Sequence record: PZ452592.1
DNA from: a phage
DNA length: 51,359 nucleotides
Reading direction: 5' to 3' (one strand)
The notes under the pieces were generated by a model, which was not told the DNA's origin, ran no database searches, and saw only the letters and a program-made list of their open reading frames with translations. The translations under genes and the position numbers were made by a program. Shown here piece after piece: positions 1 to 26,708 of this stretch (within the stretch, counting starts at the first letter, position 1; each line of letters starts with the position of its first letter).

Positions 1-1569
1 ATGATCATATGGGAAGATTTGACGGCGGCGCAAAAGCGAGCCATTAAAGAAATCAGTGAGCATTCATTCGAAAAGATGATCAGAATCTGGTTTCAGTTAT
101 TGCAGGGGCAAAAATTCCAGAGCAACTGGCATTTTAGCTTATTGTGCAGTGAGGTAGAGAAGATCATCAATGGAGAGTCGCAGAATGTGATTTTCAACAT
201 TACGCCAGGTAGCGGTAAGACTGAGATTTTCTCGATCCACATGTCACCCTACGCGTCATTGAAAAGTCGTAAGGTGAGAAACCTTAACCTTTCGTTTAGT
301 GATGGACTTGTCCAGCAAAACAGCAACAGGATAAAGGAGATTATCGGTTCTCCTGAGTGGCAAGAGCTATGGCCAGGAAAACTGGCAAAGGCGAGCGCAA
401 AAGATCTCATAGTTACGGATGGCGGCAAGGTTAAATTGCAAGTTAACTCACGTTCTATTGGCGGACAGGTAACAGGTTTGCGTGGCGGCTATATGGATGA
501 TGGTTTTACTGGTATGCTGGTTCTGGACGATCCAGACAAGCCTGATGATATGCTTTCTAAGGTCAAGCGTGAGGCGATCCACATGAGGTTAAAAAACACA
601 GTGCGTTCTCGTCGAATGAAAGACACCACGCCAATTGTTATGGTGCAACAGCGACTACACGTTAATGATTCCACCTGGTTCATGCTTAATGGCGGGATGG
701 GCGGTATTGAGTTTAAAGTTGTGAGCATTCCTGCGCTGGTTACGAAAGAATACCGCGAAACGCTTCCTGATTGGTTGAAGCCTGAATTTGATCGTGATGT
801 GTTGTCAAGTAAGCCAGTGATGATAGATGGAGTTGCTCATTATTCATTTTGGCCTGCAAAGGAAAGCGCGGAGGAATTGCTTGCATTGCGCAATGCAGAT
901 CCTTACACGTTCGCCAGCCAATACCAACAACAACCCATCGCGCTTGGCGGCAACGTGTTTAAAACAGAGTGGTTCCAGTATTACGGCAGCGGCGAAAAAT
1001 GCGCACTTCCTAAACCGGATCGCTTTGAATACACATTTATTACTGGAGATACAGCACAGAAGGCCGGAGAGCTTAACGACTATTCAGTTTTTTGTTATTG
1101 GGGGATGTATAAAAATCGCGTTTACTTCATTGATGGCATTCGCGGCAAGTGGGAAGCGCCAGATCTTGAATTAAATTTTATTGCCTTCGTTAATCAGTGC
1201 TGGAAGCGCAATAAGGAGTGTGGCAGCTTGCGACGTATTCACATTGAGGATAAGGCCAGCGGCACGGGTTTGATTCAGGGGGCCAAAAAGAAGATCCCGA
1301 TTGATATAAATCCCGTTCAGCGAAGCAATGACAAGGTAACGCGAGCAATGGACGCCGCGCCAGTAATGAGGGCAGGACGTGTGGCACTGCCAGAAAGTCA
1401 TCCCATGTTACCTGAGATACTGGCAGAGGTTGCAGCGTTCACTTTTGACGATTCTCATCCCCATGATGATATTGTCGATAATATAGTTGATGCTGTTAAC
1501 GTCGAAATGAACTTGGCAGATGATCCGGTAGCAAGGATGAAAAAGCTGGCTGGTCTACGCAATAAATAG
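1..1569 (+). CDS. terL: terminase large subunit
   Basis: 522-aa ORF with P-loop-like TPGSGKTE; directly follows terS (wrapping from window end) and precedes portal. Confidence 0.85.
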   Translation: MIIWEDLTAAQKRAIKEISEHSFEKMIRIWFQLLQGQKFQSNWHFSLLCSEVEKIINGESQNVIFNITPGSGKTEIFSIHMSPYASLKSRKVRNLNLSFSDGLVQQNSNRIKEIIGSPEWQELWPGKLAKASAKDLIVTDGGKVKLQVNSRSIGGQVTGLRGGYMDDGFTGMLVLDDPDKPDDMLSKVKREAIHMRLKNTVRSRRMKDTTPIVMVQQRLHVNDSTWFMLNGGMGGIEFKVVSIPALVTKEYRETLPDWLKPEFDRDVLSSKPVMIDGVAHYSFWPAKESAEELLALRNADPYTFASQYQQQPIALGGNVFKTEWFQYYGSGEKCALPKPDRFEYTFITGDTAQKAGELNDYSVFCYWGMYKNRVYFIDGIRGKWEAPDLELNFIAFVNQCWKRNKECGSLRRIHIEDKASGTGLIQGAKKKIPIDINPVQRSNDKVTRAMDAAPVMRAGRVALPESHPMLPEILAEVAAFTFDDSHPHDDIVDNIVDAVNVEMNLADDPVARMKKLAGLRNK

Positions 1570-1595
1570 CACTAATTGCTAAAAAGTTATATAAT
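1567..1595 (+). promoter_or_regulatory. variant 19-mer box (TAGCACTAATTGCTAAAAAG) followed directly by TATATAAT
   Basis: box overlaps terL stop TAG; TATAAT at 1590-1595 but no 18-nt spacer as in canonical cassettes. Confidence 0.3.
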
Positions 1596-1597
1596 CA

Positions 1598-1622
1598 AGG
1601 CTGGATTTTTCCAGCCTTTTTT
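1598..1622 (+). terminator. intrinsic terminator
   Basis: hairpin AGGCTGGA-TTTT-TCCAGCCT followed by T-run. Confidence 0.7.
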
Positions 1623-1639
1623 ATTATGGAGATTTGACG

Positions 1640-2935
1640 ATGAGCGAAAAAACAAGGCTAGTTAAGGCCGATGGATACAACGAGATTTTCAAGGGCAGCA
1701 AGGGTAATGGGCGTGTAGAGTTGCCTTTCTTTATGCAAGGTTTCGAATACACCACGCACGCTGATTTTTACATTCGCGATGGACTAGCAAAACGAATTAT
1801 CGACGTTGTTCCAGAAGAAATGGTGACGCCTGGATTTAATATTGACGGCGTGGAAGACGAGGAAAGTTTTAGATCTTTGTGGGATGAGAAGCGACTAAAC
1901 GATAAAATCATTGATGCGCTTTGCTGGTCGCGTCTTTTTGGTGGCGCTGCAATCGTGGCAATCGTTCAGGATGGCAGGGCATTAAAGTCACCTGTAGCGC
2001 CTGGTGCAATCCTTGAAGATGTTCGCGTTTACGATCGCTTTCAGGTTCGCGTAGAAAAGCGAGAAACTAATCCGCGCAAGGTACGATATGGTGAGCCATT
2101 GATTTACACTATTACACCTGGTGCTGACCTGCCAGAATACCAGGTTCACTATTCGCGAGTCTGTATTATCGACGGTGAGCGGCTACCAAATCAGCGGCGT
2201 CAATCAAATGATGGTTGGGGTGAGTCAATCCTGAATAAGCGATTGGTTGAGGCTATTTGTGATTACAACTACTGCGAAAACTTAGCAACTCAATTGTTGC
2301 GACGTAAGCAACAGGCAGTATGGAAAGCTAAAGGACTTGCCGATCTTTGTGATGATGATGGTGATGGTGTTAACGCCGCGCGTTTGCGCCTTGCTCAAGT
2401 TGATGATGAGGGTGGCGTAGGCCGTGCGATCGGCATTGATGCGGAAGATGAGGAATATGATGTTTTAAATTCTGATATTTCCGGCGTCGATTCATTCCTG
2501 GAAAAGAAGATGGATCGCATTGTATCTCTTTCCGGCATCCATGAAATCATCCTCAAAAACAAGAACGTTGGCGGTGTTAGCGCGAGCCAAAACACGGCGC
2601 TTGAAACCTTCTACAAGCTGATCGATCGAAAGAGAAAGGAAGAATACAAACCAATCCTTGAATTTCTGATCCCGTTCCTGATTCAAGAAGAAGAATGGAG
2701 CATTCAGTTTGCGCCGTTAAGCGTTCCAAGCGAAAAGGACCAGGCCGAGATCTTGAACAAGAATATTGATTCTTTGAGCAAGGCCATTGACGGTCAATTC
2801 ATGGATACAGATGAGGCGCGCGACACATTGCGAGCCATTGCGCCTAACGTTAAACTAAAAGACGGCAATGACATTAAATTACCTGAGCAAGACGTAGAGC
2901 CGGAGCCAGGAACAACAGAGGGTAGCAATCAATGA
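1640..2935 (+). CDS. portal protein
   Basis: 432-aa ORF right after terL; GGAG 8 nt upstream of ATG 1640 (track start 1634 is TTG); acidic C-terminus; position-based call. Confidence 0.7.
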   Translation: MSEKTRLVKADGYNEIFKGSKGNGRVELPFFMQGFEYTTHADFYIRDGLAKRIIDVVPEEMVTPGFNIDGVEDEESFRSLWDEKRLNDKIIDALCWSRLFGGAAIVAIVQDGRALKSPVAPGAILEDVRVYDRFQVRVEKRETNPRKVRYGEPLIYTITPGADLPEYQVHYSRVCIIDGERLPNQRRQSNDGWGESILNKRLVEAICDYNYCENLATQLLRRKQQAVWKAKGLADLCDDDGDGVNAARLRLAQVDDEGGVGRAIGIDAEDEEYDVLNSDISGVDSFLEKKMDRIVSLSGIHEIILKNKNVGGVSASQNTALETFYKLIDRKRKEEYKPILEFLIPFLIQEEEWSIQFAPLSVPSEKDQAEILNKNIDSLSKAIDGQFMDTDEARDTLRAIAPNVKLKDGNDIKLPEQDVEPEPGTTEGSNQ

Positions 2936-3687
2936 TAGTGAAAGGCGTCGTTAAACAATGGCGCTTTCCTGAAGCAAGCGAGCGGCAATTGCGCCGCTCA
3001 ATTCAGGAGGCGATAAGGGATCTTGTTGTGCTGATGCGCAGCAAAACAAAGGAAATGAAATTTGACGCGGACACCGAAGAAATCAACGCCGCAGAGGATG
3101 AGATTAGTAGCTTCGCGTTAAAGCTAATAGCTGGCATCGCCGCATCACTTCCGGCTATCGGTCTTGCTGTTTATAAATTCAACGCGAAGCAATTTATTAA
3201 CGTAGCCAAATCAACGGGAGGCAAGTCAAATTCAGCCGTTATCATCCTTATGGCTATTGGGGCCAATGCGAATGAGAGTTGGTATAGGACGCTATACGGT
3301 CAATGGCATGACATGACGATCGCATCTCTTCAAAAGCTATTTGGAAACATCGTGTCTGACTGGTCAACCAATATTAGATTGGCAAACTTTCGCGGAATGA
3401 GAGATAGCCAGGTTAATGAATTGGCTGGTAAGAGGTTCGCAGTGTATAGCTCTTGGGGTAAGACCAGGGCGGAAAACATCATAGGCGCTTGGAATAGTAG
3501 ACTCATGCGCCAGCGTCTTTATGATTCAAAAGTAACTCATTATTTTTGGCATGGTATGCTTGATGACAGAGAGCGATTGCAGCATGTACAATGGGAAGGT
3601 AAGCGCATTGCGCTAGATTCTGAACATGATTTTCCTGGTGAGCCTTTCGGTTGTCGTTGTTGGGCCATACCAGATTGGAACAGTTAA
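2932..3687 (+). CDS. head morphogenesis (minor head) protein
   Basis: 251-aa ORF, ATGA overlap with portal stop; position after portal typical of F-like minor head protein. Confidence 0.5.
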   Translation: MIVKGVVKQWRFPEASERQLRRSIQEAIRDLVVLMRSKTKEMKFDADTEEINAAEDEISSFALKLIAGIAASLPAIGLAVYKFNAKQFINVAKSTGGKSNSAVIILMAIGANANESWYRTLYGQWHDMTIASLQKLFGNIVSDWSTNIRLANFRGMRDSQVNELAGKRFAVYSSWGKTRAENIIGAWNSRLMRQRLYDSKVTHYFWHGMLDDRERLQHVQWEGKRIALDSEHDFPGEPFGCRCWAIPDWNS

Positions 3688-3697
3688 GAGGTATTAA

Positions 3698-4813
3698 ATG
3701 AAGGCAAAACAAAGATTTGATAGCGCCAAAGTAAAGGCGCACTTTGATGATAACGGGTTTTTAGTTGATCGCCCTATAGTGGCGCGAATTGGTTTACAAG
3801 TCTATCAGACTCCTTTCGGTGAGCGCCGAGAATTTCGCCCTGCGTCCGAAGTATTCAAGGCCGACTCACTCGCCACCTTCGCAGGGAAGCCGGTCACGGT
3901 TGGTCACGTCACGGTAACGCCAGAAAACGCCGAAAAGGTTGTAGTTGGTTCTTGTGCTGGCGCTGGTGTGCCGAACGGGATCGGCGTAGAGGTTCCGTTA
4001 AGCATTTACTCAAAACGAGCAATCGAAAGCGCAAAGAAGCGAGACACGGCGGAAATTTCAGTTGGTTATACATCGGTTGATATTGATAAACCAGGCTGGG
4101 GCAATAATAAAACTGGTGAGTACTTTTTCGATGAGGACGTTAGCGAAGACTGGAAACCTGATTCTCATGATTGGGTTAAGTTTGATGCAATCCAGACTGA
4201 AATCAAGGTAAACCACATCGCGTTAGTTTTCCGAGGTCGGGCTGGCATTGCAAAATTAAACCTTGATAGCCAGCAAGATTTTCCGTATAGTGACGACGTT
4301 ATTAACAACAAAGAGGATCAAATAATGACTGTAAAAATTAAACTTGATGGCGCTGTAGAATTTGATGTGCCGAAAGCGGTTGCGGATCACATTGAGACGC
4401 TTAAAGCTGATGCCAAAGCACAGAAAGAAAAGGCGGACGGCCTGGAAGCTGAGCGCGATGCGCTGCAATCCAAAGTAGATGGCATTCAGGATCAGATTGA
4501 TGCCGCAGTCAAGAAGGCAAAAGAAGATGCCGAGCAATATGCTCAATTAGTGGCAGACGCTAAAGAGTTAGGCATCAAGTGCGACGGCCTGGACGCCAAA
4601 GCAATCAAGGTTGCATACATCAAGGAAGTTATGGGCAATGACGTTTCTGATAAAACTGATGCCTATATCGAAACAGCTTTCGACATCGCCAAAAACTCTG
4701 ATAAAATGGCGGCGCAGCGTAAGAGCATTAAAGGTGACTCTTTCGCGAATGAAAAGCAGGATGATGCAGGTTCTAAGCTGAATCCTAACGCTCGTTTTGA
4801 GAAACTGAAATAA
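3698..4813 (+). CDS. putative prohead protease/scaffolding protein
   Basis: 371-aa ORF; Ala/Lys/Glu-rich coiled-coil C-terminal half (KADAKAQKEKADGLEAERDALQSK...) typical of scaffolds. Confidence 0.45.
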   Translation: MKAKQRFDSAKVKAHFDDNGFLVDRPIVARIGLQVYQTPFGERREFRPASEVFKADSLATFAGKPVTVGHVTVTPENAEKVVVGSCAGAGVPNGIGVEVPLSIYSKRAIESAKKRDTAEISVGYTSVDIDKPGWGNNKTGEYFFDEDVSEDWKPDSHDWVKFDAIQTEIKVNHIALVFRGRAGIAKLNLDSQQDFPYSDDVINNKEDQIMTVKIKLDGAVEFDVPKAVADHIETLKADAKAQKEKADGLEAERDALQSKVDGIQDQIDAAVKKAKEDAEQYAQLVADAKELGIKCDGLDAKAIKVAYIKEVMGNDVSDKTDAYIETAFDIAKNSDKMAAQRKSIKGDSFANEKQDDAGSKLNPNARFEKLK

Positions 4814-23260: not shown

Positions 23261-23713
23261 ATGCACGTTATTACAGGTGAGATTCGAAAAGAGCCAAAAG
23301 TAAAGCAAATGCCTAACGGCAGCACGCTATATGTTATTGAGCTTTCCGAGCGATACAAAGACCGAGAAGGAAATTGGCAGTATACAAACTATGTGTTTTT
23401 CTTTAACGCGAAAACAGACGGCCTGAATGGTTGGTATGCCGAGGCGTTCCAGGTAGGCAAGGTTGTTTCTGTTTCCTGCGATACCTTGCGAGTTGAAACG
23501 CGAGAATACAACGGAAAGATTTACAGCACCGTGCAGCCTGGCGGATTTGCAAACTTGCTATTTAGCCAGAGAGGTGAAAGCCAGCAACAATATCAGCAGC
23601 GAACGCAAGGAGGCTGGGGGCAACCACAACAGCAACAGCAACAAAATACTCAACAGCAGCCGCAGCAAAGCAATCAGCCTCCGATTGACTTTGACGACGA
23701 TATACCATTCTGA
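23261..23713 (+). CDS. ssb: single-stranded DNA-binding protein
   Basis: C-terminal tail DFDDDIPF identical to the E. coli SSB acidic tip; Gln-rich linker; RBS AGGAG. Confidence 0.85.
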   Translation: MHVITGEIRKEPKVKQMPNGSTLYVIELSERYKDREGNWQYTNYVFFFNAKTDGLNGWYAEAFQVGKVVSVSCDTLRVETREYNGKIYSTVQPGGFANLLFSQRGESQQQYQQRTQGGWGQPQQQQQQNTQQQPQQSNQPPIDFDDDIPF

Positions 23714-23722
23714 TAACAAAAA

Positions 23723-23747
23723 GCCCCGCATATGCGGGGCATTTTTT
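23723..23747. terminator. bidirectional intrinsic terminator
   Basis: hairpin GCCCCGC-ATAT-GCGGGGC flanked by A5 and T6 between convergent genes. Confidence 0.8.
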
Positions 23748-24270
23748 AGTCTAACGTGGTTGGTTTGTTTACCAGTGCCGCTACAACCGCTTTTAGCTCG
23801 TCAATTTCTTTTCTCATCTCATCGTTTTCCGCTTTCAGTTTCTTAACGTGGTGAATCAGTGGAACAGTGAGGCGGTCATACATAACGCCTTCCGCCACCA
23901 TGCCATTACTTGAAGCAATGGCAGGATCTTCTCCTTCTTGCAGCGGTCGCCAGTGAACGTACTCCGGCGCAACCTCTCCAACTTCCTCTGCAATCAGTCC
24001 GTACCATCCCCAATCTTTACGGTCGCTTTCACAAGTTGACCGATACCACACAGGACGCATTTCAAGCATCAGATCCGCATATTCATCAATAACCGATTCT
24101 ACGCTGCGCTTATAACGAGAAGAGGAAGTGGAGCGTAAAACTTGCGACACTCCAGCATTTGGATCAAGCCATAAGTTTGCTGATTGAGCGGTTGTGTTAA
24201 TATTAAATAAATAAAATGCATCGTTACCAGTTAGGGGGTAAAAACTCCCACTATACCTTCCGCTACCCAA
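23746..24270 (-). CDS. protein with C-terminal intramolecular chaperone (peptidase S74-like) domain
   Basis: SSRYKRSVESV...EMRPVWYRS...GLIAEEVGEVAPEYV matches S74 pattern; no ATG near 5-prime end (TTG at 24270). Confidence 0.5.
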   Translation of the reverse strand: MGSGRYSGSFYPLTGNDAFYLFNINTTAQSANLWLDPNAGVSQVLRSTSSSRYKRSVESVIDEYADLMLEMRPVWYRSTCESDRKDWGWYGLIAEEVGEVAPEYVHWRPLQEGEDPAIASSNGMVAEGVMYDRLTVPLIHHVKKLKAENDEMRKEIDELKAVVAALVNKPTTLD

Positions 24271-24288
24271 CTCGGATGATAGATCAGT

Positions 24289-24441
24289 TTATTTTAGATA
24301 CGGTTTCAACTTATTGTCAACATCAGCAGTTGATGCTTTTCCGGCAACATCCTGTTTTAGTGTCGAAACATCCTGTTTTAGTGTCGAAACATCACTTTTC
24401 AGCTTCGTTATATCACTAGGTATAACAGTGACTGTAGCCAT
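24289..24441 (-). CDS. mini-ORF with heptad repeats, in frame with S74-domain ORF
   Basis: 50 codons, RBS GGAG 8 nt upstream of ATG 24441; contains 21-bp tandem repeats; a single TAA separates it from the next ORF. Confidence 0.35.
   Translation of the reverse strand: MATVTVIPSDITKLKSDVSTLKQDVSTLKQDVAGKASTADVDNKLKPYLK
24346..24408. repeat. 21-bp tandem repeat x3 (third copy degenerate)
   Basis: AACATCCTGTTTTAGTGTCGA at 24346 and 24367, degenerate copy at 24388. Confidence 0.8.
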
Positions 24442-24453
24442 TTTCCTAACTCC

Positions 24454-24732
24454 TTAAGCCCATTCTCTAATAGGCTGATCTAACTCAACCACGTATCCAT
24501 TAAAAATTACGGCATCAAACTTATCATCAATGATTCGCACATTGACGAAATAGCCGTCGTTCTTTCGCGCAATCTCATCGCCATCGTCAGATCGTGCAAT
24601 TACTGTGTAAGTATTGCCGATTACATCGAGCAGGATTGCATCCTGAATGGATTCGTTTTCGTTCCATTCAATTTCTTCCAGAAAGGCGGAAAACTCCGCC
24701 TTGTCTACAAATTTCAGTGTTAAATCACGCAT
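24454..24732 (-). CDS. hypothetical protein (fibre-associated)
   Basis: 92-aa ORF from ATG 24732, overlapping fibre stop (TAATG). Confidence 0.45.
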   Translation of the reverse strand: MRDLTLKFVDKAEFSAFLEEIEWNENESIQDAILLDVIGNTYTVIARSDDGDEIARKNDGYFVNVRIIDDKFDAVIFNGYVVELDQPIREWA

Positions 24733-26708
24733 TATACAATTTCCCCCAATTGATGATCTGTTAGTGCCTTGTGCCATATACGGAAGTTTCTAACGTGCCC
24801 GAAAAGATGACGTTCGCCCGTAGTTGTTTGTCCGCCAATCCTTATAGTAGCCGTTGATTCTATGTATCTCCATTCCGTTTTTGTTTCGCTTGATATTCTG
24901 GCATTACTTACACAGCAATTATTGTAATCACTCTTTACTCTCATTCCCATGATCATCTTTTTTAGTTTTGCATTCTCGTAAACCCTTCTGTTTGATCCAC
25001 CTATATCGCAATAAGGGAATCCATCATTATCGCCCTCGGCAGATCCGAAAGCAAGAATAATTGCCGCACCAGATTGATGACCTCCAGTATCAAAAACACG
25101 AGGAGCAGCATTTGGCGTTATACTCCAGTTTTTATTAGCTTCCACAAGTACTGTAAACGGCAAATTGTAAAGGTTGTTTTTTATTGGTAATGTAACCATA
25201 TCGCTTGCCCGTGTTACTGGAGTCTCTTCTGTAATAATAAAGGATGAAGCGCACGCCCCACCTTCAACTTGAGGGGTCGCAATATAAATATAATCATCCG
25301 CGCCAGTGCCCACTCCTTTTGCCGGGGCATACTGAACCATTCCACCTATCATATTTTCTGTATCAAGTGCCTTAATTGTCGCCTCAAAAAAGATCCATTT
25401 GCTTGCTTCATCTTTAACAGCCCTTGCAGTAATACGATTTGCAGCGACGCCAGTTTTTTCAATTGATAAATCTGTCAGATTTACGTAAGCATCACCCAAA
25501 AATGCATAAGCAGATCCATCGTAGTTTTCAAATCGTAATCGGCATCTTAAATTTGGAGTCCCACTTTGCGCCCTGCATGATATGGTTACATACTTTTCAT
25601 TTCCTGTTACATCAAAACCTCTACTGCCGGAAACGGTTACTATGTTAATCGCTGAAGTTTGCCCTACCATTTCTGGTTTTAATGTAAATTTTGCGTACTG
25701 GAATCCGAAATTATCCACACCTGATCTATCTAAGATCATATTTGATGACTTGTTCCATTTTGAAGGATTGACGCTATTTATAAGAAGGTTTGTTCTTTGC
25801 CCCTCAATGAGCAGACCATCCTTTTCAAATCTAGGTTCATCAATAGCAGCATTAGTAAGCACCCCAGACTTATTAATGTAAGTAGCGGTTGATGCGCGTT
25901 TAAACTTAACAATCTTGTCACCTGGCATCGTGATCTCATCGTCACCTATAACAATCTTTTTATATGACGGAGAGAATCCGGTGATCATATCCAGGGAATC
26001 ATTAAACGGTATCCACACGTCCGGCAACGGTTGCAATAAATCTTTGTAAGGTTCTGCGGCCTGCTTTGCGTATTCCTCCGCTTGATCTCGCGCACTTTCA
26101 GCTCCTGCCTTTGCAGTGTTCGCAGCGTCACGCGCGGATTCAGCGCCTTTTCTTGCAGTTTCAGCGCCAGTCTTTGCAGTGTTTGCAGCGTCGCGCGCGG
26201 ATTCAGCGGCAGCCTTTGCAGTGTCAGCACCTTTCTTGCTATTCTCTGCATTTGTTGCGCTTGTCTTTGCGTTATTCTCGCTAGTTTTAGCTGCCTTCTG
26301 GCTTGCTGCGGCTGCGTCAGCATTTGTCTTTACGTCTTCCTGGATCTTCTGTAGCTTATCCCAATCAAAATCCTTGATGATCTCAATAAATCCAGCAAGC
26401 TCAGACTCCTTTCCCTGGTAATAACGCAACGTTTCCGCTACGTCTTGCGCAAGACCGTCAACCGTTAACGAGTCATGAAGCAAGATCAGGTAATTTGTCT
26501 TCTGGACTACCGCGCCGCCAGTAGTAATTGCGCGAATGCTTGTATCGCTAATCACTTCTGTAATCACAGCAGCTTGCAAAGGTTGAGCAAGAAAGAAAAT
26601 AGTTGCGCCTGGGCGAATCAAGGTTAATTGCTCACGCCATTTTGTACCGTAACCAGTTACATAACCTTGCGCGTCCATAGACGCTTGGCCTTGTCTGTAA
26701 ATCGCCAT
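24732..26708 (-). CDS. side tail fibre protein
   Basis: 658-aa ORF from ATG 26708 with RBS AGGAGG; Ala-rich 21-aa repeats; beta-rich lectin-like C-terminal domain. Confidence 0.65.
   Translation of the reverse strand: MAIYRQGQASMDAQGYVTGYGTKWREQLTLIRPGATIFFLAQPLQAAVITEVISDTSIRAITTGGAVVQKTNYLILLHDSLTVDGLAQDVAETLRYYQGKESELAGFIEIIKDFDWDKLQKIQEDVKTNADAAAASQKAAKTSENNAKTSATNAENSKKGADTAKAAAESARDAANTAKTGAETARKGAESARDAANTAKAGAESARDQAEEYAKQAAEPYKDLLQPLPDVWIPFNDSLDMITGFSPSYKKIVIGDDEITMPGDKIVKFKRASTATYINKSGVLTNAAIDEPRFEKDGLLIEGQRTNLLINSVNPSKWNKSSNMILDRSGVDNFGFQYAKFTLKPEMVGQTSAINIVTVSGSRGFDVTGNEKYVTISCRAQSGTPNLRCRLRFENYDGSAYAFLGDAYVNLTDLSIEKTGVAANRITARAVKDEASKWIFFEATIKALDTENMIGGMVQYAPAKGVGTGADDYIYIATPQVEGGACASSFIITEETPVTRASDMVTLPIKNNLYNLPFTVLVEANKNWSITPNAAPRVFDTGGHQSGAAIILAFGSAEGDNDGFPYCDIGGSNRRVYENAKLKKMIMGMRVKSDYNNCCVSNARISSETKTEWRYIESTATIRIGGQTTTGERHLFGHVRNFRIWHKALTDHQLGEIV
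26109..26231. repeat. 63-bp tandem repeat (about 2.3 copies) inside fibre gene
   Basis: CTTTGCAGTGTT(C/T)GCAGCGTC(A/G)CGCGCGGATTCAGCG(C/G)C at 26109 and 26172, partial copy at 26214. Confidence 0.75.

What the first reader, a model, noticed from the sequence alone, without database searches (positions are those of the whole stretch)
23746..24441. Orphan S74-type intramolecular chaperone domain ORF lacking an ATG, in frame with an upstream repeat-containing mini-ORF across a single TAA
The minus-strand ORF 23746..24270 carries a recognisable fibre/spike intramolecular chaperone signature (SSRYKRSVESV...EMRPVWYRS...GLIAEEVGEVAPEYV plus coiled coil) but only about 50 residues precede the presumed autocleavage serine, and its 5-prime end has no ATG (TTG at 24270, weak RBS). 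Upstream, a 50-codon mini-ORF (24289..24441) with a good RBS and 21-bp tandem repeats encoding heptads (DVSTLKQ x2) is in the same frame; one TAA (24289..24291) plus 6 sense codons separate them. This may be a fibre gene split by a nonsense codon, a programmed readthrough, or an unusually short fibre module served in trans by the adjacent 658-aa fibre (24732..26708).
Basis: partly seen in the sequence, partly recalled or inferred. Interest (0 to 1): 0.6.

Follow-up and report, generated by a model that had tools for sequence, protein, structure and literature searches.

The report
Side-fibre gene broken by a stop codon
A small tail-fibre gene of this T1-like coliphage is knocked out by a single C-to-T change that makes a stop codon. 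That alone is ordinary, but the same gene is broken at 11 other places in 14 of 35 sequenced relatives, and at two more in other assemblies, so losing it looks tolerated or favoured.

Summary
On the minus strand, a 50-codon ORF (24289..24441) and a 174-codon TTG-ORF (23746..24270) share one frame. A single TAA (24289..24291) and six sense codons separate them.

Together they are the 696-nt orthologue of a 231-aa gene that is one intact ORF in many Warwickvirus (Drexlerviridae) phages. Relatives have CAA (Gln) where the window has TAA.

The intact protein is natively short:
- an N-terminal heptad stalk (the 21-bp repeats);
- a small tip region;
- a C-terminal Peptidase_S74 intramolecular-chaperone domain with the Ser-x4-Lys motif.

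It is the third gene of a conserved cassette (about 660-aa lateral fibre, about 90-aa protein, about 230-aa S74 protein). The cassette also occurs in an E. coli prophage and another phage.

So this is a nonsense-inactivated allele, not an orphan domain and not programmed readthrough: the stop is private, it is an ochre codon, and the window has no tRNA genes.

Unexpectedly, 14 of 35 GenBank relatives carry other private lesions, at 11 sites. Two further assemblies add two more sites. Flanking genes stay intact and intact copies have dN/dS of about 0.2.

The likeliest reason, by inference, is selection for or tolerance of side-fibre loss, as with lambda PaPa stf.

The parts
23746..24441 (-). 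Whole short side-fibre / S74 gene, the orthologue of the 231-aa gene of relatives, here interrupted at codon 51
   Evidence: One-frame translation with a single internal stop. The orthologous 696-nt ORFs in PeterMerian, JLBYU16, BEBK14 and WaterSpirit are intact.
24289..24291 (-). Premature ochre stop TAA (codon 51), where relatives have CAA (Gln); a C-to-T change at 24291
   Evidence: Nucleotide alignment and codon table. The allele was not found elsewhere.
24292..24441 (-). 50-codon N-terminal fragment that is still translatable: a conserved N-terminal peptide plus the heptad stalk
   Evidence: ORF list. Residues 1-46 match the N-terminus of tail-fibre family phrog_4563.
24346..24393 (-). 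21-bp tandem repeat, 2.3 copies, encoding DVSTLKQ heptads
   Evidence: Tandem Repeats Finder. Relatives carry in-frame 675-, 696- and 738-nt alleles that differ in this region.
24450..24455 (-). Shine-Dalgarno sequence AAGGAG for the gene's ATG; it overlaps the stop codon of the 92-aa gene
   Evidence: Read directly from the sequence.
23746..24270 (-). Downstream remnant: a TTG-initiated 174-codon ORF with no Shine-Dalgarno sequence, holding the tip region and the whole chaperone domain
   Evidence: Gene callers produce the same artefactual 174-aa ORF in another phage that has a different upstream lesion (P0012).
24109..24126 (-). Predicted autocleavage motif, Ser106-x4-Lys111 (STS|SSRYK)
   Evidence: K111 is invariant and S106 nearly invariant across 30 homologues. 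The motif aligns with TSGIEYK of DT57C LtfA. Cleavage itself was not tested.
23749..24123 (-). C-terminal intramolecular chaperone (Peptidase_S74 / ICA) domain ending in a long helix
   Evidence: Pfam PF13884, PDB profile hit to 8hqz_d, an AlphaFold model with pLDDT 74-95 across this half, and Foldseek hits to 7dc3, 3gud and 3gw6.
23723..23740 (.). Bidirectional intrinsic terminator shared with the convergent SSB gene
   Evidence: A 7-bp all-GC stem with T-runs on both strands.
24454..24732 (-). Conserved 92-aa gene of unknown function, the middle gene of the fibre cassette
   Evidence: Annotated as a 279-nt CDS in all 24 annotated relatives fetched, with one longer call in KMB46. It matches phrog_1361. 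Homologues are 76-102 aa, nearly all 92-93 aa, and occur only in E. coli phages and prophages.
24732..26708 (-). 658-aa lateral tail fibre gene, the first gene of the cassette, with no S74 domain
   Evidence: phrog_1419 'tail protein' at 8e-242, with the N-terminus shared by several tail-fibre families. NCBIfam GTA_spike_fiber domain. Only a weak Laminin_G_3 match at the C-terminus. Intact in every annotated relative fetched.

Best explanation
The two ORFs are the halves of one gene, a natively short (about 231-aa) side-fibre protein of a Warwickvirus-like T1-family coliphage. A single C-to-T substitution (CAA to TAA, codon 51) inactivated it.

The intact protein has three parts: a conserved N-terminal peptide with a heptad coiled-coil stalk of variable length, a tip region of about 50 residues, and a C-terminal S74 intramolecular chaperone. 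By analogy with T5 and DT57C Ltf and K1F endosialidase, the chaperone would drive trimer folding and then cut itself off after Ser106. It is the last gene of a conserved three-gene lateral-fibre cassette.

In this genome, translation should stop after 50 residues. The TTG-ORF has no ribosome-binding site and lacks the N-terminal stalk. At best a trace of an unattached fragment would be made, so the phage is effectively null for this fibre component.

Shown here: orthology, the private stop, the domain identity, the conserved cassette, purifying selection on intact copies, and recurrent independent disruption in relatives.

Inferred: loss is tolerated because lateral fibres of these phages are accessory on rough hosts. 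Loss may even be favoured during plaque or enrichment propagation, as documented for lambda stf.
For: Orthology and private stop. PeterMerian, JLBYU16, BEBK14, WaterSpirit and others have one intact ORF over the same 696 nt, with CAA at codon 51. The TAA allele is absent from IMG/VR and the 174-aa product is absent from the protein collection.

Domain identity. Pfam S74, the DT57C LtfA C-terminal domain, an ICA/chaperone fold, and a conserved Ser-x4-Lys motif.

Natively short. Homologues are mostly 208-315 aa (shorter entries are partial or truncated), including E. coli prophage clusters with 2,928 and 650 members.

Conserved cassette. An E. coli prophage (L067) and a 60.8-kb phage contig (L069) carry the same fibre / ~90-aa / S74 order at 31-60% amino-acid identity.

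Modular fibre-tip origin. In IMG/VR contigs L005 and L006, residues 41-231 (78% identity) form the C-terminus of a single 1187-aa fibre that has the same N-terminus as the window's fibre.

Purifying selection. Intact copies give dN/dS of 0.13-0.21.

Recurrent loss.
- 14 of 35 distinct GenBank relatives are disrupted, at 11 different sites.
- A Logan assembly and an IMG/VR contig from a 68%-identical lineage add two more sites.
- Among the 26 relatives fetched, 13 are disrupted while the flanking fibre, 92-aa and SSB genes are intact in all annotated records; taking 0 of 26 for the flanks gives Fisher p=3e-5.
- In the window, tuinn and Phunderstruck, this is the only real gene of 90 aa or more with an internal lesion, and the site differs in each.
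- Private nonsense changes exceed even the neutral expectation: 5-6 observed against 1.1-1.9 expected, P=0.001-0.045.

Precedent. Lambda carrying a functional Stf quickly yields large-plaque stf frameshift mutants (PMC2762979). Lateral fibres of T5-like and Drexlerviridae phages are dispensable on rough K-12 (PMC10713586, PMC8594841).
Against: - No read-level data are available, so a consensus or sequencing error at 24291 cannot be excluded.
- There are no expression or virion data. Low-level ochre readthrough, or reinitiation at the TTG 18 nt downstream, cannot be ruled out.
- The reason for recurrent loss is inferred. Broken alleles also occur in phages isolated on non-K-12 hosts (AV105 on ESBL128, KMB46 on KMB575) and in one IMG/VR contig whose provenance could not be checked. 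Laboratory adaptation is therefore not the only possible cause.
- The excess of nonsense changes over neutrality is only moderately significant.
- If the selected trait were simply lower adsorption, it is unexplained why the three-times-larger long-fibre gene is never hit.
- The protein's actual role (branch, distal tip or independent whisker) and its receptor are unknown.
Confidence: 0.82

Rival explanations
1. Natural on/off polymorphism (contingency or bet-hedging). Null alleles of this gene would arise and persist in wild populations because the fibre helps on some hosts and costs on others, or because it triggers a host defence. They would not be products of laboratory propagation. The window's TAA would be one such wild allele.
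For: One null allele is in an IMG/VR contig of a 68%-identical lineage. Others are in phages isolated on wild E. coli strains. Three phages share a +C in a C5 run, and the repeat region generates frameshifts. A preprint reports hypermutable repeat loci in phages and ranks Warwickvirus highest for repeat density among BASEL genera (10.1101/2025.10.21.683753).
Against: The window's lesion, and five other lesion sites, are base substitutions. These are not readily reversible slippage events. The C run has only five bases. Every lesion is private or nearly so, which means they are very recent. Too few close uncultured relatives were found to compare wild and cultured populations: 1 intact and 1 partial in metagenomes.
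Confidence: 0.25
2. Sequencing or assembly error. The phage really has CAA and an intact 231-aa gene.
For: The difference is a single base. No reads are available to check it.
Against: It is a substitution, not a homopolymer indel, and substitutions are rare in consensus assemblies. Fourteen GenBank relatives from several laboratories and platforms carry comparable lesions, five of them at substitution sites.
Confidence: 0.07
3. Programmed or host-dependent readthrough. The TAA would be decoded at useful efficiency, for example by an ochre suppressor host inserting Gln, giving full-length protein at a reduced dose.
For: The two parts are in frame. The wild-type residue is Gln, which glutamine-inserting suppressors would restore.
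Against: The stop is not conserved in any of the 26 relatives translated. TAA is the most efficiently terminated stop codon in E. coli (general knowledge). The window has no tRNA gene. No recoding structure was sought or seen. Relatives' lesions include frameshifts, which cannot be read through.
Confidence: 0.04
4. Two functional products. The 50-aa peptide and a reinitiated (or newly promoted) 174-aa protein would both be made, and the latter would act as a free S74 chaperone for the neighbouring fibre. This follows the 'lateral tail fiber chaperone' annotation of the orthologues.
For: The TTG lies 18 nt after the stop, so reinitiation is conceivable. The same C-to-T change creates an 11/12 sigma-70-like site (TTGACA, 18-nt spacer, TAAAAT) just upstream. 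Orthologues are annotated as a chaperone in the BASEL records.
Against: There is no Shine-Dalgarno sequence before the TTG. Characterised S74 chaperones act in cis on the segment immediately N-terminal to them (PMC4728585). In L005 and L006 this very module sits in cis at the end of a long fibre. The 658-aa fibre has no S74 cleavage motif. Promoter-like sites are not enriched in the region: 4 found against 7.0 expected.
Confidence: 0.04

Closest known systems
Intact orthologues in Warwickvirus phages, e.g. PeterMerian Bas05_0029 'putative lateral tail fiber chaperone', JK16 and XY3 'chaperone of endosialidase', BEBK14 'tail fiber protein'
   Same: Same locus, between the lateral fibre plus 92-aa genes and the convergent SSB gene. 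Nucleotide identity is 94-99%, with the same domains and terminator.
   Different: The window has TAA at codon 51 where these have CAA. The relatives' annotations disagree with one another, and none rests on an experiment.
Branched L-shaped tail fibres of T5-like phages DT57C and DT571/2 (LtfA and LtfB), and T5 Ltf (pb1)
   Same: These are accessory lateral fibres with a C-terminal autocleavable pfam13884 chaperone. The family profile matches LtfA residues 955-1074. In DT57C a second fibre protein docks on the first through a short N-terminal peptide, and the fibres are dispensable on rough hosts (PMC4728585, PMC10713586).
   Different: Here the second protein is only about 231 aa, giving a mature part of about 106 aa. 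The long fibre has no S74 domain. A 92-aa gene lies between the two. Attachment of the short protein to the long fibre is untested.
Lambda PaPa stf frameshift, and laboratory-selected stf null mutants
   Same: A non-essential side-fibre gene knocked out by point lesions. Many independent null alleles are spread along the gene; 19 of 21 large-plaque lambda isolates had mutated stf, 15 of them by frameshift (PMC2762979).
   Different: In lambda the selective cause (plaque size and adsorption rate) was demonstrated. Here it is inferred from comparative genomics only. The gene family is different (S74 short fibre against Stf/Tfa).
Intramolecular chaperone / ICA domains of K1F endosialidase (3gw6), GA-1 gp12 (3gud) and MyRF (7dc3)
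   Same: The fold and Ser-x4-Lys motif of the C-terminal half.
   Different: Sequence identity is only 13-26%. The passenger here is a very short fibre, not an enzyme or a long spike.

Membership tests
Peptidase_S74 / intramolecular chaperone auto-processing domain | Significant match to the family profile | tested here: met
   PF13884 scores 22.6 bits against a cut-off of 22, which is marginal. The family profile matches 8hqz_d (DT57C LtfA) residues 955-1074 at E=2.4e-6. Most homologues carry a precomputed PF13884 hit.
Peptidase_S74 / intramolecular chaperone auto-processing domain | Conserved cleavage Ser and catalytic Lys five residues later | tested here: met
   S106 is conserved in 90% or more, and K111 is invariant, among 30 homologues. 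The motif aligns with TSGIEYK of LtfA.
Peptidase_S74 / intramolecular chaperone auto-processing domain | Chaperone fold at the extreme C-terminus, ending in a long helix | tested here: met
   The AlphaFold model has pLDDT 74-95 over residues 111-220 and a helix at 188-224. Foldseek gives 7dc3 at probability 1.00, with weaker matches to 3gud (0.89) and 3gw6 (0.30 or less).
Peptidase_S74 / intramolecular chaperone auto-processing domain | Trimerisation-dependent autoproteolysis | not testable with these tools
   This needs protein biochemistry. The N-terminal half was modelled at pLDDT below 50 as a monomer.
Functional short S74 side-fibre gene of the Warwickvirus lateral-fibre cassette | Synteny: fibre gene, about 90-aa gene, S74 gene, terminator, convergent SSB gene | tested here: met
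   The same cassette is present in a prophage and another phage.
Functional short S74 side-fibre gene of the Warwickvirus lateral-fibre cassette | Uninterrupted ORF of 224-245 codons | tested here: not met
   TAA at codon 51. The window carries a null allele of the gene, not a working member.
Programmed stop-codon readthrough / recoding site | The stop codon is conserved at that position among relatives | tested here: not met
   Of 26 relatives, 24 have Gln (CAA), one has Lys (AAA) and one is frameshifted upstream.
Programmed stop-codon readthrough / recoding site | A phage-encoded suppressor tRNA or other decoding aid | tested here: not met
   ARAGORN finds no tRNA gene in the 51-kb window.
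Branched lateral fibre (DT57C LtfA/LtfB type) | Both fibre proteins end in an S74 chaperone | tested here: not met
   The 658-aa fibre has no PF13884 hit, only a weak Laminin_G_3 match and a GTA_spike_fiber domain.
Branched lateral fibre (DT57C LtfA/LtfB type) | The second protein docks on the first through a short conserved N-terminal peptide | tested here: inconclusive
   The N-terminal 46 residues are conserved. They are shared with phrog_4563 and with short S74 proteins of other small siphoviruses (KurtStettler, JenP2). Physical attachment is not testable here.
Culture-selected side-fibre null alleles (lambda PaPa stf type) | Many independent loss-of-function alleles in one accessory fibre gene while neighbouring genes stay intact | tested here: met
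   Fourteen distinct lesion sites in all. 14 of 35 GenBank relatives are disrupted. Flanking genes are intact in every annotated relative fetched. A genome-wide control in three genomes found no other broken gene.
Culture-selected side-fibre null alleles (lambda PaPa stf type) | The null allele gives larger plaques, lower adsorption or higher fitness in culture | not testable with these tools
   This needs isogenic phages and phenotyping.

The most novel reading that the evidence does not exclude
The short S74 fibre gene may be a hot spot of adaptive loss in T1-like coliphages. About 40% of sequenced Warwickvirus genomes carry independent, very recent null alleles, while the long fibre gene next to it is never hit. 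That would imply this small protein, rather than the long fibre, sets a costly trait. Candidates are over-fast or non-productive adsorption, or recognition by a host defence. The gene would then behave as a natural on/off (contingency-like) locus. A practical consequence follows: many 'wild-type' reference genomes and therapeutic isolates of this genus would be fibre mutants with altered host range.
Probability: 0.3. Interest if true: 0.55.

Novelty: new member of a known kind. Interest (0 to 1): 0.35.

Why it matters
For this genome, the practical result is an annotation fix. The region should be called as one disrupted gene for a short lateral-fibre protein with an S74 chaperone domain. It should not be called as a 50-aa hypothetical protein plus an 'endosialidase chaperone'. 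GenBank relatives are annotated inconsistently, as two ORFs, as 'chaperone', as 'tail fiber' or not at all.

More broadly, the comparative pattern resembles a replicated natural experiment. It suggests that an accessory fibre component of Drexlerviridae is repeatedly lost in sequenced isolates. If so, host-range, adsorption and receptor studies of this genus may unknowingly compare fibre-plus and fibre-minus strains. The same applies to phage-therapy candidates. The pattern also points to the short S74 protein, rather than the long fibre, as the component with a fitness cost, and that is directly testable.

Tried and rejected
- Wild versus cultured comparison. A metagenome scan for close relatives returned only one full-length close relative (intact) and one partial, too few to compare. 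IMG/VR gave one intact close relative and one disrupted distant one.
- The exact TAA allele in IMG/VR and an identity look-up of the 174-aa product both found nothing, so the source genome and allele are not on record.
- AlphaFold on the intact 231-aa protein as a monomer. The N-terminal stalk and tip were modelled at pLDDT below 50, so nothing can be said about the tip fold.
- Literature search for a prior description of this gene's function or its recurrent disruption. None was found. Only general statements were found on Drexlerviridae lateral fibres, the DT57C and lambda analogies, and a preprint on phage repeat loci.
- Suppressor tRNA: none in the window.
- Apparent in-frame stops in other genes in the genome-wide control. 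All fell in spurious 5' extensions or antisense ORFs, not in real coding sequence.
- The sigma-70-like site created by the mutation was treated as a probable coincidence, because such sites are not enriched in the region.

Full report
**The observation**

On the minus strand there is a 50-codon ATG-ORF (24289..24441) and a 174-codon TTG-ORF (23746..24270). Translating 23746..24441 in one frame gives a single internal stop. That stop is TAA at 24289..24291. Six sense codons (TDLSSE) follow before the TTG.

The ATG has an AAGGAG Shine-Dalgarno sequence (24450..24455). The TTG has none. A perfect 21-bp repeat, 2.3 copies, lies at 24346..24393 and encodes DVSTLKQ heptads. A GC-rich bidirectional terminator (23723..23740) ends the gene opposite the convergent SSB gene.

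**What the region is**

The window is a Warwickvirus-like member of the Drexlerviridae (T1 family). 63 phage records match the 1.2-kb region at more than 80% identity, and 41 records carry this gene.

In PeterMerian the same 696 nt form one annotated 231-aa CDS, 'putative lateral tail fiber chaperone'. Twenty-six relatives were fetched and translated. At the window's codon 51, 24 have Gln (CAA), one has Lys and one is frameshifted just upstream. The window's two ORFs are therefore one gene carrying a private CAA-to-TAA nonsense mutation.

The allele was not found in IMG/VR, and the 174-aa product is not in the protein collection. The window has no tRNA gene. Programmed readthrough is thus unsupported on every point that could be checked.

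**The intact protein**

The C-terminal half is a Peptidase_S74 intramolecular chaperone:
- Pfam PF13884 scores just above threshold, 22.6 against 22 bits.
- A profile of 30 homologues matches the C-terminal 120 residues of DT57C LtfA (8hqz_d, E=2.4e-6).
- The AlphaFold model is confident over this half, with pLDDT 74-95.
- Foldseek finds the MyRF ICA domain (probability 1.00) and, more weakly, the phage chaperones 3gud and 3gw6.
- The Ser-x4-Lys motif is conserved: S106 nearly invariant, K111 invariant.

The protein is natively short. Homologues are mostly 208-315 aa (shorter entries are partial or truncated) and include E. coli prophage clusters with thousands of members. The N-terminal 46 residues match the N-terminus of another tail-fibre family (phrog_4563). 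The remainder matches the extreme C-terminal ends of long-fibre families. The heptad region varies in frame among relatives, giving 675-, 696- and 738-nt alleles.

**The surroundings**

The gene is the third member of a cassette: a 658-aa lateral fibre (24732..26708), a 92-aa protein (24454..24732) and this gene. The same order recurs at 31-60% amino-acid identity in two other places. One is next to an integrase in an E. coli chromosome (L067). The other is in a 60.8-kb phage contig (L069).

In another T1-like contig with the same synteny (L005 and L006), residues 41-231 of this protein (78% identity) are instead the C-terminus of a single 1187-aa fibre. That fibre's N-terminus equals the window's fibre N-terminus. 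The module is therefore a genuine fibre tip plus its cis chaperone. In Warwickvirus it exists as a separate short protein.

Intact copies are under purifying selection, with dN/dS of 0.13-0.21.

The 92-aa protein gave no functional lead.

**The unexpected part: recurrent disruption**

Among the 35 distinct GenBank phages carrying the gene, 14 are disrupted, at 11 different sites.

Nonsense substitutions:
- TAC to TAA in JLBYU07 and in EC195/EC125
- GGA to TGA in Phunderstruck
- GAG to TAG in tuinn
- GAA to TAA in JLBYU01

Frameshifts:
- +C in a C5 run in AV105, orkinos and JLBYU19
- +CC in JLBYU10
- -A in brachmannus
- -G in ityhuna
- -A in SECphi27
- a 13-nt deletion in the repeats of KMB46

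A Logan assembly has yet another frameshift. An IMG/VR contig of a 68%-identical lineage has a further nonsense codon. With the window, that makes 14 distinct lesion sites.

Three controls put this in context:
- The flanking fibre, 92-aa and SSB genes are full-length in every annotated relative fetched. Against 13 of 26 disrupted for this gene, taking 0 of 26 for the flanks gives Fisher p=3e-5.
- In a genome-wide comparison of the window, tuinn and Phunderstruck, this is the only real gene of 90 aa or more with an internal lesion, and the site differs in each genome. All other flagged cases were spurious 5' extensions or antisense ORFs.
- Private nonsense substitutions (5-6) exceed what even a neutrally evolving sequence would give for the 9 private synonymous changes (1.1-1.9 expected; P=0.001-0.045 depending on the transition/transversion ratio). 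This significance is only moderate.

**Mechanism**

Shown: the gene is broken, the break is private, the family is functional and conserved, and breaks recur.

Inferred consequences in this phage:
- Translation ends after 50 residues.
- The TTG-ORF lacks a ribosome-binding site and the N-terminal stalk, so this component of the lateral fibre apparatus is missing.

Inferred reasons for recurrence:
- Lateral fibres of T5-like and T1-like phages are thought to bind O-antigen or other glycans, and are dispensable on rough K-12 (PMC8594841, PMC10713586).
- Lambda carrying functional side fibres rapidly yields large-plaque stf null mutants on agar, with 19 of 21 isolates mutated (PMC2762979).

Isolation by enrichment and plaque purification could therefore select or fix null alleles. 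Several things do not fit neatly:
- Null alleles also occur in phages isolated on wild strains, and in one IMG/VR contig whose provenance could not be checked.
- The larger long-fibre gene is never hit.
- The data therefore cannot exclude wild on/off polymorphism, or a cost specific to this protein.

**Comparison with what is known**

The gene family is already annotated, inconsistently, in GenBank. Its chaperone domain belongs to the well-studied S74/ICA family.

The nearest functional analogue is the two-protein branched lateral fibre of DT57C (PMC4728585). However, the long fibre here has no S74 domain, and attachment between the two proteins is untested.

The nearest evolutionary analogue is the lambda PaPa stf frameshift.

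No paper describing the recurrent disruption was found.

**Verdict**

It is an ordinary explanation, a nonsense pseudogene of a known accessory fibre gene, with a moderately interesting comparative pattern that can be tested experimentally.

Noticed in passing
window 24291..24320 (minus strand): The C-to-T change that creates the TAA also converts TAAAAC to TAAAAT. This completes an 11/12 sigma-70-like site (TTGACA 24320..24315, 18-nt spacer, TAAAAT 24296..24291) about 20 nt upstream of the TTG at 24270. Such sites are not enriched in the region (4 found against 7.0 expected), so it is probably a coincidence.
   Followed up: partly
window 24454..24732 (minus strand): A conserved 92-aa gene lies between the long fibre gene and the short S74 gene. 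Its start overlaps the fibre stop (TAATG) and its stop overlaps the next gene's Shine-Dalgarno sequence. Homologues (76-102 aa, nearly all 92-93) occur only in E. coli phages and prophages. The AlphaFold model is good (pLDDT 84.5), but no structural or family match indicates a function.
   Followed up: yes
window 24234..24238 (minus strand, C5 run in 'TACCCCCTAA'): Three relatives with different sequence backgrounds (AV105, orkinos, JLBYU19) carry the same +C frameshift in this run. It could be a slippage hot spot, recombination spreading one allele, or homopolymer sequencing error. The window has the in-frame C5.
   Followed up: partly
window 24346..24393 and the orthologous region in relatives: The N-terminal heptad region changes length in frame among close relatives, by units of 21, 42 and 63 nt, giving 224-, 231- and 245-aa proteins. 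More distant homologues reach 268-269 aa with extra heptads. The same region also produced two of the frameshift lesions (KMB46 and Logan contig L065).
   Followed up: partly
L005 and L006 (IMG/VR 3300045988_036915 and _025133), locus 1034..4597: A related T1-like phage has one 1187-aa lateral fibre. It shares the window fibre's N-terminus and carries the short gene's residues 41-231 (78% identity) as its own C-terminus. It has no 92-aa gene. This is a clear example of one-gene versus three-gene fibre architectures built from shared modules.
   Followed up: partly
window 26092..26228 and 23627..23643: A 63-bp tandem repeat (2.2 copies, 82% matches) lies in the Ala-rich stalk of the 658-aa fibre gene. 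CAACAG repeats encode the Gln-rich C-terminal tail of the SSB gene.
   Followed up: no
GenBank records of relatives: Annotation of this gene is inconsistent across records. It appears as 'chaperone of endosialidase', 'putative lateral tail fiber chaperone', 'tail fiber protein' and 'hypothetical protein'. Elsewhere it is split into two CDSs, not annotated at all (KMB46), or truncated without a pseudogene flag (JLBYU01, SECphi27).
   Followed up: yes
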